Source: Eledone cirrhosa (Eukaryota). Taken from it: DNA of 64,000 nucleotides. Made by a program: the position numbers and the translations under genes. Every line of letters begins with the position of its first letter. The first letter of the stretch is position 1. This document shows positions 14,916 to 57,995 of this stretch, piece by piece. A model generated the notes under the pieces. That model saw only the letters and a program-made list of their open reading frames with translations. It made no database searches and had not been told where the DNA came from. The DNA lies in contig OZ024745.1 in assembly GCA_964016885.1 (NCBI GenBank), forward strand, positions 52,018,001 to 52,082,000, written 5' to 3'.

Positions 14916-15105
14916 TAGGAAAAAGTATGTCCCCGACGGCAGAGCTGAAGCCGTTTCGACCGGCTATTTCTGGACGTCGAAACGCCTTGAGCACTTCCGT
15001 CGGGGTCATACTTTTTTCCTATTTCCCACTCACTCTACTACCCTAAGTATTGAGTAATCTGGTGCGGTACGGTCCATTTGGTTCCTTACCACATTTCCTT
15101 TGTTA
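14916..15105 (+). mobile_element. Family B fold-back PLE terminus, copy 1
   Basis: Imperfect inverted arms TAGGAAAAAGTATG.CCCCGACGG../..CCGTCGGGGTCATACTTTTTTCCTA plus an ~85-nt tail, flanked by (TA)n. Homologous to 47772 and 48382. Confidence 0.75.
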
Positions 15106-15254
15106 TATATATATATATATATATATATATATATATATATAGTAATAATAATAAAATTGAAGACTAAAATCCAGAGAGGGCTCGATAAGGAAAATATATA
15201 TCAAATATATAAGAACCGAAGAGCAAATATTTATTAAAATAACAGATTAAAGTT

Positions 15255-16202
15255 ACCCTCAATTTATTGAATGGGTTGCATTACCCGTATAGAAAGCCGA
15301 ATGATACGCTTAATTACATAAGTAAGCATTCCAACCATCCTGCCAGCATAACCAAGAACCTGGTAAAAAACGTTTCGTTGAGGCTTTCCCGTCTTTCCAC
15401 CAACGAGCGCATTTTCAACGACCATTCCACTTATTACAATGAAGCTCTTGCTCGAAGTGGATTTGTCGATAAGGTAGCATATACAGAGTACGAGAATAGA
15501 CCTAGAAGAAATAGATCCCGTCGCATTTGTTGGTTTAACCCACCATATAATATGGAGGTGGCCACACCATTAGCTAAGATCTTTCTTTCCCTTATTACGA
15601 AGCATTTTCCCCCTACACATAAACATACTAACATTTTTAATAGAAACACTATTAAAATTTCTTACTCAACGACTCCTAACCTTGCACATAACATCACAGC
15701 TTCAAATTTAGCTAAAATACCTAGCCGTAGGAACACGTGCAACCCTGTAGTTAGTACTAACTGTAATTGTAGGAATCGGGCTGATTGTCCCCTATCCGGG
15801 AAATGCCTCTCTAGTAACATTGTCTACAAATGTAAGGTTGTAACACCCACGTCCCGTAGGGCCTACATAGGGTTAACCGCCAATAGTTTCAAGCAGCGTC
15901 TTTACATGCATACCCATTCTTTTCGTTACCCTCTAAGAAGGAATATGACGTCACTTTCAGCTTATATCTGGAGTCTAAAAGACAACCACACCCAATATAA
16001 GTTACACTGGGAGATCCTAGCTAGGGCTAGATCGTATAACGGAAATAAAAGACCATGTGACCTCTGCGCCGCTGAGGCCCTGGAAATACTCTACGCCACA
16101 GACTACATCTTAAACAAAAAATCTGAGGCAATTTCGGCTTGTAAACATAAATTGCACAAAACTTTCCTGTATTACAGCCCTACGTTATACCCTAACGGAT
16201 AG
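15255..16202 (+). pseudogene. PLE RT thumb + Zn-finger linker + GIY-YIG endonuclease (uninterrupted but 5'-truncated frame)
   Basis: YPYRKPN..YI...SNHP, RRICWFNPPY, CNCR...CPLSGKCL, VYKC.V....YIGLTANSFKQRL..H..SF, T.LS.YIW.LK, C.LC..E, LNKK.E....C.H. Confidence 0.9.
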
Positions 16203-17111
16203 CACGATCTATACGTGGATATTTACGTCTTGATGTGGGAGCTAAGTATATGTTTTGTTTATTCCTTTACTTTTTGCATAGGTAAGTATATATTACCCGT
16301 ATGTTTTGTGAAGGTATGTATACCTTCTCGTACGTATATTTGACTGTTTTGCCGTATAATTTTTACATATTCTGGTATTTAGGGCTTGGTTATGTGTATA
16401 TGGGAGTTTTGCGTCTGCGTGAGTATGCAGGTTCGTACGTATGGTAGGTGTGTGTATATGTGTACTTCTTGTTTTAGTTGACTTACGTCTCCGAACCTTC
16501 ATGTATTTATTTGTAGGTATGTGTGTGCGCTTGTTATATACGTATTTATTTACTTATATACGTTTATATAATTATTTATTTATTTGTACACAAGCATACA
16601 CACATGCACATATTTATATGTGCGTGGTTTTGTATACCTATGGTAAGGTTTTGCGTAGGCTTGTGTATGTACGTATCTGTTTGCGTGTATGTATTTATTT
16701 GTTCCTATTACTTTTGTATTGTATTTATTTACTTTGTTCTTAACTCTGTAGCGGAGATTCATTCGGTCTCCTAGTTAGAATTTTAGTCTACGACTTCTGC
16801 TATACCATTTACGTGGTTTTGTCTTTGCACGCTATTGTTCTCCACGCTCCACATATGACTTAGTATCTTCGTTTTTTCGTTCATTGCCAGAGAACGTCTC
16901 TATGCACCACTTAGAGAACATTAGTCTACGACCTCTTTTATACCATAAACGTGGTTCTGTCCTTGCACGTAATTGTTTTTCACCGCTCCTATTAATGACG
17001 TATTATTCGTTTTTTCCCGTTCTTTGCCAGCGAACGTCACCGTGAACCAAAGTATCGTCTTCCTGTCTTCCTCCGGTTGCAACGTTTTTTGAAATATCCA
17101 GTTCTGCGTTT

Positions 17112-54400: not shown

Positions 54401-54514
54401 AATAAAATCAAATTGTTTAGAACTACCAGTTAAGTCATTTTTTTTTTTTTTAAATCTATCTATCTATCTATCTATCTATCTATCTATCTATCTATCTATC
54501 TATCTATCTATCTC

Positions 54515-55054
54515 TGGTTGCCCACCGAGTCCATTGTCATGATCAAACCGCCACCCTCCTTCAAAAACGAAGGAGATGTGGTTTTCCTTTGTGTGATAGC
54601 TATGGCGAAAGAGGTTGTATGGTGGACAAGGTTGAAAGGGCTGAGGTCAGACACATTTCTCTCCGGCCAACAACTGATTCTTTTTTTCAAATACCACTTT
54701 GGAAGAAGAATCAGGATGGAGAGAGAGGTGCTATACCCCAGCAAGTTTTATGAAAGGTGGGTGAAAGTGGCGAGAATGGCCCGAGTGAGTGGGCCTTCTC
54801 TCTATATCAGCCTGTAGGTTGAGGAAAAGGAAGAGGAGAGGAAAGGAGTACAAACTCTTCGTACTCCTGGATATGAGGGTTGCACATTTTGTCGGGGGTA
54901 TGTGTTACCCATATAAACTGTCTCCCCCTATTGGGGAAAATCGACTAATTTTTAAATTGCATTTGTGATAACATTTTACACGTTTTTATTGTATGTAAAC
55001 TTCCCCCTTGTATTTGTCCCCTTCTTTTGTGCCCCTGTGGCTAATAAAGAAACA
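54515..55054 (+). mobile_element. Tx1/L1 3' fragment embedded in (TATC)n
   Basis: ORF 54518-54817 is nearly identical to the ORF2 C-terminus at 58376-58680; ends AATAAAGAAACA; (TATC)n on both sides. Confidence 0.92.
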
Positions 55055-57842
55055 TATCTATCTCTCTATCTATCTATTATCTATCTATCTATCTATTTAT
55101 CTATCTATCTATCTAATTATCTATCTATTTATCTATCTATCTCTCTCTCTCTATATATATATATATCTATATATTGTTTTTAATCTGTTTGTGCATACTT
55201 GCGTGAGTGTATATGCATATAATTATATGTATAGGCGTGTGTATATATATATTTGTATATAAAGTCGACACTGACCAATATTTAAAAAATTCCATTTAAC
55301 CTGAAGCCCAATTCATTTAAATTATATGTACGAAACGTTGTTTCTCCTGAAACGTATGTAGAGCATTCCATTGTTAATTCATATTTAATCAAGTTTATCA
55401 TAGAAGGACATCTTCATTTAACGATGGATGTTGATATTAATCGTTTGATAATGAGAATTTCATTTCTTTTCGGAGAAGATTTGCATAAACATCAGTTAAT
55501 TATATGAATATTTTATCAATGCATGATGAATCTTATCGATGCGGCTATTTTAGACAAATCATATATATATATATATATATATATATATATGCGTGTGTGT
55601 GTGTGTGTGTGTGTGTGTGTGTGTGTGTGTGTGTGTGTGTGGAGAGAGGGGGAGATTGAGAGAATGAGAGAGAGAAATTATATTATTTTTGCAAAAGATA
55701 CGTGCCAGAAGAAACATATCCGAACTTAATTTGAATTTTGTCTTATCATATATACATATAAGTGTGTTTAGGCATTTGTATCTGTGTGAACCCATTTTTG
55801 TTTGCGTTATGTTGTTATTTGTTATGTATGGGTTTAATGCAAAATGGAGTTTCTTCTAAAATGTTCAATCCATTATTAGAAAATTTCAATTAACTGATAT
55901 GTTTTTATCTATAAAATACACTTGAACGAAAAAAATAAATATAAAACATTATCAAGCATAGTAATTTCATTTAAATAGCTCTGGAGCAGATGAGCTTTAA
56001 TTAATTACATTTAACCTGAGTCAAAATGGCTGAATGAGTTGATTAATTTAAAATAAATATTGTACAGAAAAAAAGAAAAAAAAATTCAGTAAAATGAAAA
56101 AAATATTAATTTACTTTAAAAAAGTGTGTACATTATTAATAAAAACATGACGTTTTCTTTATTTATTTTGTCCAAGAATAAACTTCTGCCATACATTGAA
56201 TCCATAGCTGTATGAAATATATTCATTTATAAGCTTTATATATAAAAGGAGCTTCTACGGATTTCTGTTAAAAGATAGGATAAGAAACAAAAATCGACGT
56301 AAAAAGATTATGAGTTACTGTCTCACTATTTATAATGATTTTCATGCTTTATTTAGATTTTGGACGGAAATTTAAACGTTTTTTTGGCAGATACTATTTA
56401 CTATATAATTGGCTACCAACAGCAGTGCAATATTTCGTTCAATGTCAAAATGAATGGAGACGAGCCAAATAACGATTAGGTGCGCGTTTGTAAACTCCGT
56501 TGTTACTATATGTATTTACATAATGACTATATATATGAGTCATACTAACCAATATTTTTAGTCAAATCGAAGATATTGATGAAAAGCATAGAAATATATA
56601 TATATATATATATATATATATATATATGTGTGTGTGTGTGTGTGTATTTGTGTGTGTATGTGTGTGGTGTGTGTGTGTAAGTAAAATGTAAACAGAAATA
56701 ACTACACAATCGGTACATTAAGTGGAAGATAATATATTAGGTTAACGCTTGAATAGCACGGACGCTAGGCCTTCATCAGGAGAAAGAATGAGAAGTTGTG
56801 TTTATGTGTGTGATGTTTATGTATGTGTGTGTGTGTGTGTGTGTGTGTATGTCTGTATTTAGGTATATATGTGCGTGTATTTGAAATAATATATATATAC
56901 ATATATATATATATATGTGTGTGTGTGTGTGTGTTTCTGTTTGTATTTAGATATATTCAAGAAATTAAGAAAGAAAGGAAAGTGTGGACTAAATGCGAAA
57001 ATGCTGATGGCTTTGTATCATTGATAAAGCCTATTAATTAATACTTACTTCTTTATACACTTAAGAAAGTGAACCAGATAACAATAAAACACACATCGCT
57101 TTTTAGACGTTTATCTTTTATATTGTGTTTTGCTTTTGTTGTTTTATGGTCCGATATATATTAGAAGAGGATGAATATTCTTTGTTACTCTAAAGCCAAT
57201 GCAATCGATCTTCAATTGTTTTGTTTCATCATCTTAGAGAACATTAGATACCATTCATTTGATACTATAACTTCGATAATTGAACTTCCTAAAAGTGCAT
57301 TTCCTTTATGTACTACATGTGTGTGTTTGTGTGTATAATTACCTTTTGAAAAGAAGTGAATGAGGATTAAAATGTAAGTATTAGTTTCCTTTAGATAAAA
57401 AGCGGGCTATGTAAATATAAAAAAAAGATAATGTAGATATGACGGAAAATCTCATAATTCTATGGTATTCAAACACCTTTATTAATTTCACCCATAGTAA
57501 GGGTTTTCACAATCAATTCCATGTTCACTGGGATTCTCTTTTATATTACATGTAGTGTAAAATATATGACACGCTTTATGTTTGCATGTGTGTAAAAAGT
57601 ATTTGTGGAAGAGGATTGGTAAGTGTGAGTGAGTGAGGCTGTGGTTGATGCTGGTGCAAAAAAAAGCTACACGGTATTATAGTTATAGTATAGAAAGGGA
57701 GGTATGATTATTTCTACATCGGTGCGTATTGTTAAGTCAAATATATATATATATATATATGTGTGTGTGCGTGTGAGTGTGTGTGTGTCTGTGTGTGTGT
57801 GTGTGTGTGCATGTGTGTGTATGTGTGTGTGTGTGTGTGTGT

Positions 57843-57995
57843 GGCCCGAGTTCAATCTGGGGTAACCACAGTATGTAAGGTACTCAATACATTGCAGAGT
57901 ATACATATTTAATATAGAAATGGCTTCTACATGACTAGAACTGTTCCATTCGAAGGAAACATTTCTAGTCCTGTAGAAACCATTTCTATACTTAA
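57843..57995 (-). mobile_element. Family E fold-back remnant with hammerhead 3' half
   Basis: Imperfect arms 57909-57947 and 57955-57995, tail 57843-57908; arm reads GAAA-CA-10nt-TG-TA. Confidence 0.6.

What the first reader, a model, noticed from the sequence alone, without database searches (positions are those of the whole stretch)
14916..57995. Shared architecture: ribozyme-bearing fold-back inserts in (TA)n, with the turn at the hammerhead
Seen: nine short inserts from five sequence-unrelated families (A 19824, 24471, 48013; B 14916, 47772, 48382; C 26674; D 35937; E 57843). They share microsatellite - arm - turn - inverted arm with tail - microsatellite, with element 3' ends facing outward and usually one arm shorter. 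All carry a hammerhead or its 3' half. The turn is at stem I/core in A, at the presumed stem II in B and E, in core/stem II in D, and ~75 nt upstream of the HHR in C. Established: PLE pseudo-LTRs carry HHRs and truncated PLEs often have an inverted terminus. Inference: the folded ribozyme is a preferred RT stall or turn point, and self-complementary (TA)n lets both target ends prime. This would yield minimal palindromic ribozyme cassettes. I do not know this HHR-registered fold-back rule as a described system.
Basis: partly seen in the sequence, partly recalled or inferred. Interest (0 to 1): 0.85.

Follow-up and report, generated by a model that had tools for sequence, protein, structure and literature searches.

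The report
Penelope palindromes centred on transcription start
Eight of the nine short mirror-image inserts are head-to-head pieces of Penelope-like jumping genes, and across the genome their mirror point piles up at one fixed base, often preceded by an extra G, which likely marks the capped start of the element's RNA rather than its ribozyme and likely records how these elements copy one RNA onto both strands of a cut chromosome.

Summary
Architecture confirmed for 8 of 9 inserts; the hammerhead (HHR) rule is not supported. Families A, B, C are Hydra-clade Penelope-like elements (PLEs); E looks the same but no parent ORF was found. D is the end of an unrelated TA-flanked inverted-repeat element. 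In genome-order samples (77 A, 48 B, 71 C tails) arm 3' ends are fixed at two sites about 80 nt apart. Arm 5' ends pile up at one initiator-like A (+1). Long-arm stops per 1000 arm-nt, +1 zone versus HHR: A 11.8/3.2, B 42/7.9, C 21.5/1.5; C's HHR core lies 90 nt downstream of +1. Genome-wide in A, 2,919 arms break from the parent at +1 (58 of the first 100 preceded by G), against 860 at -1 and 1,081 at +2 (19 and 21 G); the HHR cleavage site shows no peak (601 vs 548). Either arm can reach further 5'; the two arms always match in subfamily. Best reading: both nicked strands prime reverse transcription of the capped sense RNA, run off at the cap and join head-to-head. Inverted termini, tails, (TA)n targets and HHRs are known; the cap-marked centre I did not find in print, nor in this scan's notes. 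No RNA data were available.

The parts
19825..20142 (.). Family A palindrome, both arms full to the distal start (+160); left arm reaches +1 at 19985, right arm begins at +6 (19986)
24474..24708 (.). Family A palindrome; short arm (- strand) reaches +1 at 24545, followed by one base (24546) that reads G on the element strand and is in neither template; long arm from +3 at 24547
48013..48258 (.). Family A palindrome; long arm (-) runs 8 nt past +1 (to 48182), short arm (+) from +2 at 48185; an exception to the +1 limit
15142..17200 (.).
14917..15103 (.). Family B palindrome; short arm to +2 (14975), long arm from +16 (14976); holds only the 3' half of the U3-A8 hammerhead
47773..47963 (.). Family B palindrome; long arm (-) to +1 (47904), short arm from +2 (47906)
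48383..48574 (.). Family B palindrome of the second subfamily; arms meet at +5/+2 with 1-nt microhomology (48517)
26675..27137 (.). Family C palindrome; short arm to +9 (26856), long arm from +1 (26857); complete HHR in each arm, cores at 26947-26953 (+) and 26768-26774 (-)
57844..57995 (.). Family E palindrome; turn at a 6-nt palindromic microhomology in HHR loop II (57949-57954), downstream of the family's usual 5' limit
35939..36182 (+). 'Family D': decayed ~200-bp TA-flanked terminal-inverted-repeat element whose left end is inverted and partly duplicated around (TA)12; not a PLE, no hammerhead

Best explanation
The short palindromes are insertions of Hydra-clade Penelope-like elements that likely arise when both nicked strands of a (TA)n target prime reverse transcription of the element's capped sense RNA at two fixed internal sites about 80 nt apart, and the two cDNAs likely run off at or near the RNA's 5' end and are joined head-to-head. 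Shown: two fixed 3' ends, a sharp 5' limit at an initiator-like A, an extra G before it, microhomology or short fill-ins at the joint, same subfamily in both arms. Inferred: +1 is the transcription start in the pseudo-LTR; the G is the copied cap; a partial-tandem transcript carries a first copy of both priming sites only 60-280 nt from the cap, so priming there gives short dead-end palindromes, while priming at the downstream copy gives long arms that stop anywhere in the body. The hammerhead lies near the turn only because the start site sits in or beside it.
For: Short-arm 3' ends: A +75 in 12 of 24 (8 more at +108/112), B +61 in 25 of 27, C +195-199 in 29 of 33; long arms end at +160, +140, +280. 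5'-most arm end within -6..+13: A 12 of 24, B 24 of 27, C 19 of 33 two-armed inserts; further upstream 9, 1, 3. E by eye: 14 of 19 two-armed copies stop 7-13 nt upstream of the core, none further. Parents read TT|AGTTT (A), TT|AGTCC or TC|AGTCC (B), TC|ACTG (C); TATA-like boxes at about -30 in B and E parents. A genome-wide: break at +2 1,081 (G 21 of first 100), +1 2,919 (G 58), -1 860 (G 19), read-through 18,191 (Fisher p about 2e-8). Among +1 ends whose preceding base is neither the parent's base nor explained by the partner arm, G in 33 of 42 (32 of 41 after one duplicate; p 4e-11 against 28%). Some inserts have both arms at +1 (L193/194, L095). Short arm further 5' in 30, long in 26, equal in 13 of 69; 65 distinct junctions of 69. 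Literature: a purified PLE cuts and extends both strands, starts at two internal sites, and HHR mutants insert normally (PMC11167929, parts 1-2 of 4 read); PLE start sites lie in the pseudo-LTR (PMC8557442 section 10; PMC2377424 passages); untemplated G marks capped L1/SVA templates (PMC4859970 passages).
Against: No RNA or cap data: no RNA holder was listed, so +1 as start site rests on DNA alone. No TATA box at -30 in A or C. In C the G share at +1 is only 42 of 100 with T equally common (T mostly microhomology) and in B 43 of 100 with C a parent variant; the position controls were run for A only. In A and E +1 lies within about 13 nt of the HHR core, so the two cannot be fully separated there. 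Many arms stop a few to tens of nt short of +1, and 9 of 24 A inserts turn upstream (one long A insert was counted from both ends; long inserts turning beyond the 900-1400-nt reference are missed). Arms match at subfamily-diagnostic sites in every pair (e.g. 52 of 52 in B, 52 of 52 in C, about 50% expected), which one RNA, one source locus or successive subfamily waves explain, but which a copy-back mechanism also predicts. Samples come mostly from contig C1.
Confidence: 0.7

Rival explanations
1. One cDNA or an antisense RNA folds back and primes its own copy (self-priming, as proposed for head-to-head PLE palindromes in PMC3846280); the fixed short-arm end would be cut later by the endonuclease.
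For: Arms are always of the same subfamily; junctions often use small palindromic microhomologies such as GCTAGC, TTAA, TATA; proposed in print (section 11 read).
Against: A copy-back arm cannot extend further 5' than its template, yet the short arm does in 30 of 69; inserts with both arms at +1 and 1-3 nt between them leave no loop; an extra G on the sense strand fits a capped sense template, not an antisense one.
Confidence: 0.12
2. +1 is a fixed RNA 5' end made by something other than transcription start (processing, a preferred RT drop-off with terminal C addition), with the rest of the two-strand model unchanged.
For: No RNA evidence (one search listed no RNA holder); no TATA box in A or C; reverse transcriptases add C at template ends (recalled).
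Against: +1 is an initiator-like YY|A motif in A, B, C, with TATA-like boxes near -30 in B and E; it is not the HHR cleavage site (+47 in A, +42 in B, about +140 in C) and not a 3' splice junction in A or B (the AG is kept).
Confidence: 0.09
3. One reading: the folded hammerhead stalls or turns the reverse transcriptase.
For: In A, B and E the turn lies within or next to the HHR; stop rate inside the HHR is above the upstream rate (A 3.2 vs 1.9, B 7.9 vs 0.6, C 1.5 vs 0.35 per 1000 arm-nt).
Against: Rates just downstream of +1 (+14..+60) are as high as in the HHR whether or not it lies there (A 3.6, B 5.9, C 2.7); C turns 90 nt away; B's short RNA cannot fold the HHR because its 5' half is upstream of +1; 79% of A arms with +2..+22 read through; no peak at the A cleavage site.
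Confidence: 0.05
4. The palindromes are MITE-like units amplified from palindromic master copies.
For: A palindrome query for C returned 40 loci (all that were scored) with nearly the same turn and ends.
Against: That search selects for the query's junction; those loci show at least five junction spellings and both loop orientations; genome-order samples give 65 distinct junctions of 69.
Confidence: 0.03
5. Assembly or library fold-back artefact.
For: Palindromes next to (TA)n are hard to assemble.
Against: Arms end at family-specific sites and flanks are not mirrored; short-read contigs of run X1 hold strand-switch joints at L079:1601, which is +1, though X1 may be the assembly's own sample.
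Confidence: 0.01

Closest known systems
Hydra clade of Penelope-like elements (Craig et al. 2021, PMC8557442; includes Hydra-1_Obim in its File S1)
   Same: RT plus C-terminal GIY-YIG, DKT, CxCx5C linker, CxxC/CxH, no CCHH, HHR in the pseudo-LTR, (TA)n targets; inverted 5'-truncated copy and one-sided tail are listed as general PLE features
   Different: Tail is about 80 nt here against 30-40 bp stated; RWK reads RWR; the pile-up of inversion points at one G-marked base is not mentioned in the passages and sections read
Poseidon of Anolis (PAc) in vitro (Frangieh et al. 2024, PMC11167929)
   Same: Both strands cut and extended; two internal RT starts delimit the tail; HHR cleavage dispensable
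   Different: Other clade; starts lie in the ORF there, in the 5' leader here (ATG at +203 in A, +328 in C); the paper leaves second-strand steps and inverted ends unexplained
Head-to-head pLTR palindromes of Adineta Penelopes (Arkhipova et al. 2013, PMC3846280)
   Same: Inverted pLTR joined at the 5' end, tail on one arm, Inr-like TCACT noted in the pLTR
   Different: Read there as self-priming on an antisense template and left open; the data here favour a capped sense template
L1 twin priming and cap-derived untemplated G (review PMC4859970, passages)
   Same: Both target ends prime; microhomology at the inversion; extra G at full-length 5' ends
   Different: L1 inversions do not duplicate the inverted part (recalled); here both arms overlap from the proximal start to +1
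Opposite-strand min-HHR pairs in Schistosoma PLEs (Cervera and de la Pena 2014, PMC4209133, passages)
   Same: HHR pairs 100-700 bp apart on opposite strands; U3-A8 core variant as in B
   Different: Noted in passing, no junction mapping

Membership tests
Hydra-clade PLE (A, B, C) | Single ORF with RT and C-terminal GIY-YIG endonuclease | tested here: met
   C: 743-aa frame in L380 with YRDD and IVY..VG; A: L093, L311, L333 and window 15246-16200 with IVY..YIG; B: endonuclease end in L042. Pfam gave no family for 2 of 3 proteins and a chance-level hit for the third, so this rests on motifs
Hydra-clade PLE (A, B, C) | DKG motif changed to DKT | tested here: met
   SDKTGN in A, SDKTNN in C; B's N-terminus not recovered
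Hydra-clade PLE (A, B, C) | CxCx5C linker; CxxC and CxH around conserved E and N; no CCHH | tested here: met
   A CNCRNRADC, CDLC, CKH; C CNCRDRSKC, CDLC, CKH; B CNCPDRSMC in L288, CNLC
Hydra-clade PLE (A, B, C) | N-terminal RWK motif | tested here: inconclusive
   RWR in A and C
Hydra-clade PLE (A, B, C) | Placement in the Hydra clade by RT phylogeny | not tested
   No tree with published Hydra proteins was built
Hydra-clade PLE (A, B, C) | Insertion into (TA)n | tested here: met
   Tail end followed by a TA-type repeat in 69 of 77 A, 45 of 48 B, 67 of 71 C; empty sites not seen
Hydra-clade PLE (E) | Parent ORF linked to the HHR region | tested here: inconclusive
   No ORF linked to E in 30 E loci; the Hydra ORF in L156 lies beyond the flanking repeat
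Type I hammerhead ribozyme | Core CUGANGA/GAAA/NUH with three helices and covariation | tested here: met
   C and E canonical cores, stem variants keep pairing; B U3-A8 variant. A deviates at U4, 10.1-11.1 and H17 (hand parse); D fails
Type I hammerhead ribozyme | Rfam model match; self-cleavage | tested here: not met
   0 gathering-level hits in 8 loci, none in the window at E<=1; cleavage itself not testable here
MITE (clonal palindromic unit) | Identical junction and ends across copies, fixed target duplication | tested here: not met
   65 distinct junctions of 69
Non-LTR retrozyme | Head-to-tail tandem HHR units | tested here: not met
   Inserts are head-to-head; definition from bioRxiv 10.64898/2026.07.22.740005, part 1 of 5 read
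TA-flanked terminal-inverted-repeat element (D) | Terminal inverted repeats flanked by TA | tested here: met
   Window D pieces align to both ends of L182/L183/L168/L177; the label 'mariner-type' is recalled, no transposase was searched

The most novel reading that the evidence does not exclude
Tens of thousands of cap-centred palindromes are a genomic record showing that Penelope-like elements copy a single capped sense RNA onto both strands of the target at once, mapping start site and both priming sites to the base; and in three families the start site is placed inside the hammerhead (loop II in B, stem I in A and E) so that the cap-proximal copy of the ribozyme is crippled while the downstream copy is whole, a built-in switch that spares the messenger from self-cleavage.
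Probability: 0.3. Interest if true: 0.7.

Novelty: new variant of a known kind. Interest (0 to 1): 0.5.

Why it matters
How PLEs make their head-to-head inverted ends, and whether the template is sense or antisense, was left open in print (PMC3846280 discussion; PMC8557442; PMC11167929 stops before second-strand steps). These families give thousands of short, two-armed products whose centre and ends can be read to the base. They favour a capped sense template primed from both strands, give exact start and priming sites for an in vitro test with a near-intact ORF, and argue that the hammerhead is a bystander at the junction. They also warn that such palindromes can be mis-annotated as MITEs or hairpin RNA genes.

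Tried and rejected
DNA searches with the A and C tails found nothing because the words are too common; patterns worked. The palindrome-ranked C set first suggested a clonal MITE; genome-order sampling rejected it. A first junction walker stopped early at subfamily differences and was replaced; anchors less than 500 nt from a locus edge were dropped and partner calls with a 3' end below +31 were dropped before the counts. 200 kb of random stretches held only about 6 copies. Rfam gave only microsatellite-driven miRNA noise and nothing in parents; Pfam did not recognise the ORFs. No RNA holder listed; X5 and X6 laid one contig each and say nothing; X1 and X4 may be the assembly's own study. No tandem tail-to-ORF copy of B or E was found, so a second tail motif could not be checked. 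HHR cleavage as the source of 5' ends in A: 601 vs 548 at the neighbour, rejected. Not-in-print claim rests on 8 full-text searches; subscription papers and most supplements (Craig File S2 structures, all Frangieh supplementary figures) were not seen and may bear on it. An octopus repeat paper (PMC13282606, passages) was opened on a recalled guess at the host group, which no call tests; it has no hammerhead or Hydra mention. Scan notes: nothing by words, one unrelated hit by sequence.
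Full report
Observation. The window is G000:C5:52018001-52082000 of a 3.0-Gb genome. Eight of the nine listed inserts are head-to-head inverted arms between microsatellites. Seven have one short arm; 19825-20142 is symmetric. 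The ninth, D, is not of this kind: its body hits a ~200-bp element with terminal inverted repeats flanked by TA (40 candidates scored), and both D pieces align to that element's end. The window also holds a longer A insert, 15142-17200, with the same outward 3' ends but a turn inside the ORF.

What the families are. [quoted passage not shown] These are the defining features of the Hydra clade of Penelope-like elements (PMC8557442 section 11), which inserts into (TA)n, carries hammerheads and is listed from an octopus in File S1. A and C proteins are 44% identical over 464 aa. E shares the build and a clean hammerhead, but no parent ORF was linked. Exact tail words occur 11,983, 38,283, 2,205 and 92 times. 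Hammerheads: C and E canonical with covarying stems, B with the known U3-A8 core (PMC4209133 passages), A non-canonical by hand parse; Rfam detects none.

3' ends. I took tails in genome order (30 loci per family from the pattern searches, plus 80 fetched stretches for A and C, plus incidental B tails) and aligned them to real long copies: 77 A, 48 B, 71 C anchors. An adjacent inverted arm was called in 24, 27 and 33. Long arms end at +160, +140, +280; short arms at +75 (12 of 24; 8 at +108/112), +61 (25 of 27) and +195-199 (29 of 33). So two fixed starts lie 79-85 nt apart. This matches the two internal RT starts and both-strand extension shown in vitro for the Anolis element (PMC11167929); the one-sided tail and inverted copy are textbook PLE features.

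5' ends. The furthest arm ends within -6..+13 of one A in 12 of 24 A, 24 of 27 B and 19 of 33 C inserts, and further upstream in 9, 1 and 3 (one long A insert counted twice; long inserts turning beyond the reference are missed, and many minus/plus pairs kilobases apart show that they are common in A). That A sits in an initiator-like context in each parent, with TATA-like boxes near -30 in B and E but not in A or C. Its place relative to the hammerhead differs: stem I in A and E, loop II in B, 90 nt upstream of the core in C. Long-arm stops per 1000 arm-nt are 11.8, 42 and 21.5 around +1 against 3.2, 7.9 and 1.5 in the hammerhead, and the latter equal the rates at +14..+60. Genome-wide in A, arms leave the parent sequence at +2 1,081 times, at +1 2,919, at -1 860, and read on 18,191 times (these counts include point mutations). 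The predicted cleavage site gives 601 against 548 at its neighbour. The hammerhead rule therefore fails.

The extra G. In A the base before the break is G in 58 of the first 100 matches at +1, 19 at -1 and 21 at +2 (hand counts; Fisher p 2e-8 and 1e-7). B gives 43 G, 47 C (a parent variant), 10 A; C gives 42 G, 42 T (largely microhomology), 16 A. Removing read-through copies, bases explained by the partner arm and the parent's own base leaves G in 33 of 42 +1 ends (set enriched for non-parent bases by the search design, which does not favour G). The window's 24474 insert is one of them. An untemplated G is the accepted mark of a capped template in L1 and SVA (PMC4859970 passages). Run X1's contigs show strand switches at L079:1601, which is +1, but may come from the same sample.

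One cDNA or two. The short arm reaches further 5' in 30, the long in 26, equal in 13 of 69 inserts, with 65 distinct junctions; some have both arms at +1. A cDNA that folds back cannot do this, and clonal amplification does not fit. Yet arms agree at every subfamily-diagnostic site tested (B 30 of 30, 52 of 52, 52 of 52; C 52 of 52, 44 of 44, 65 of 65; A 9 of 9, 11 of 11; all loci pooled, overlaps possible). One RNA copied twice with strand displacement, two RNAs from one source, or subfamilies active at different times all fit; I cannot separate them.

Mechanism. Shown: geometry, counts, G excess. Inferred: +1 is the capped start in the pseudo-LTR (as in Penelope and Chlamys); a dimeric protein nicks both strands of (TA)n and primes at the two sites; priming at the cap-proximal copy of the sites gives short run-off cDNAs; their ends are joined by microhomology or short fill-in. 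The ribozyme is near because the start is near. Confidence 0.7; rivals are listed with their evidence.

Known and new. Inverted ends, tail, (TA)n and hammerheads are known for this clade. Head-to-head palindromes were read as self-priming on an antisense template, with sense use left open (PMC3846280 section 11). A pile-up of inversion points at one G-marked base, and an ~80-nt tail, I did not find in eight searches or in the parts of the papers read. Papers seen: PMC8557442 passages, sections 10-11, File S1 rows; PMC11167929 parts 1-2 of 4; PMC3846280 passages and section 11; PMC4209133, PMC4859970, PMC2377424, PMC13282606 passages; the retrozyme preprint part 1 of 5.

Verdict. Interest 0.5.

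Noticed in passing
window 35635-36010: The left end of the inverted-repeat element is inverted and about 15 nt duplicated between a long (TA)n array and (TA)12; it could be scar of a cut-and-fill event at a TA site. Unexplained.
   Followed up: partly
window 17400-19786: Decayed 5'-truncated copy of another Hydra-type element (RT to GIY-YIG pieces, 38-58% identity to family C protein) between two (TA)n runs.
   Followed up: partly
tails of A (+117), B (+86), C (about +216), E; L093, L380 just past the long start: A T(T/C)GAG(T/C)(A/G/C)CT-like word recurs in all four tails, and again about 20 nt past the distal start in A and C parents; a candidate protein-binding motif that positions RT starts.
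   Followed up: partly
family A, +100 to +112: A third group of arm 3' ends (8 of 24 partners), mostly on arms that extend far upstream.
   Followed up: no
family C leader, L380: Leader of 327 nt with six upstream ATGs, a G|GTATGT donor-like site near +42 and a pyrimidine-AG near +225 around the hammerhead: possible 5'-UTR intron as in Penelope; no spliced copy noticed among the C copies read.
   Followed up: no
window 24762-24856: Two 42-nt tandem pieces of the family A distal end directly after the 24474 insert's (TA)n, suggesting repeated abortive priming at one site.
   Followed up: no
window 44905-44935 (-), 25480-25509 (-), 52890-52921 (-): Further hammerhead-like cores of other repeat families; 25536-25600 is also a short palindrome beside (TA)n.
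   Followed up: no
G000:C2:61196561-61197526: Seven family A words spaced about 150 nt apart on one strand: a head-to-tail array, possibly retrozyme-like.
   Followed up: no
L031, L333: Long two-armed inserts in which one arm carries an internal deletion of the ORF or 3' UTR.
   Followed up: no
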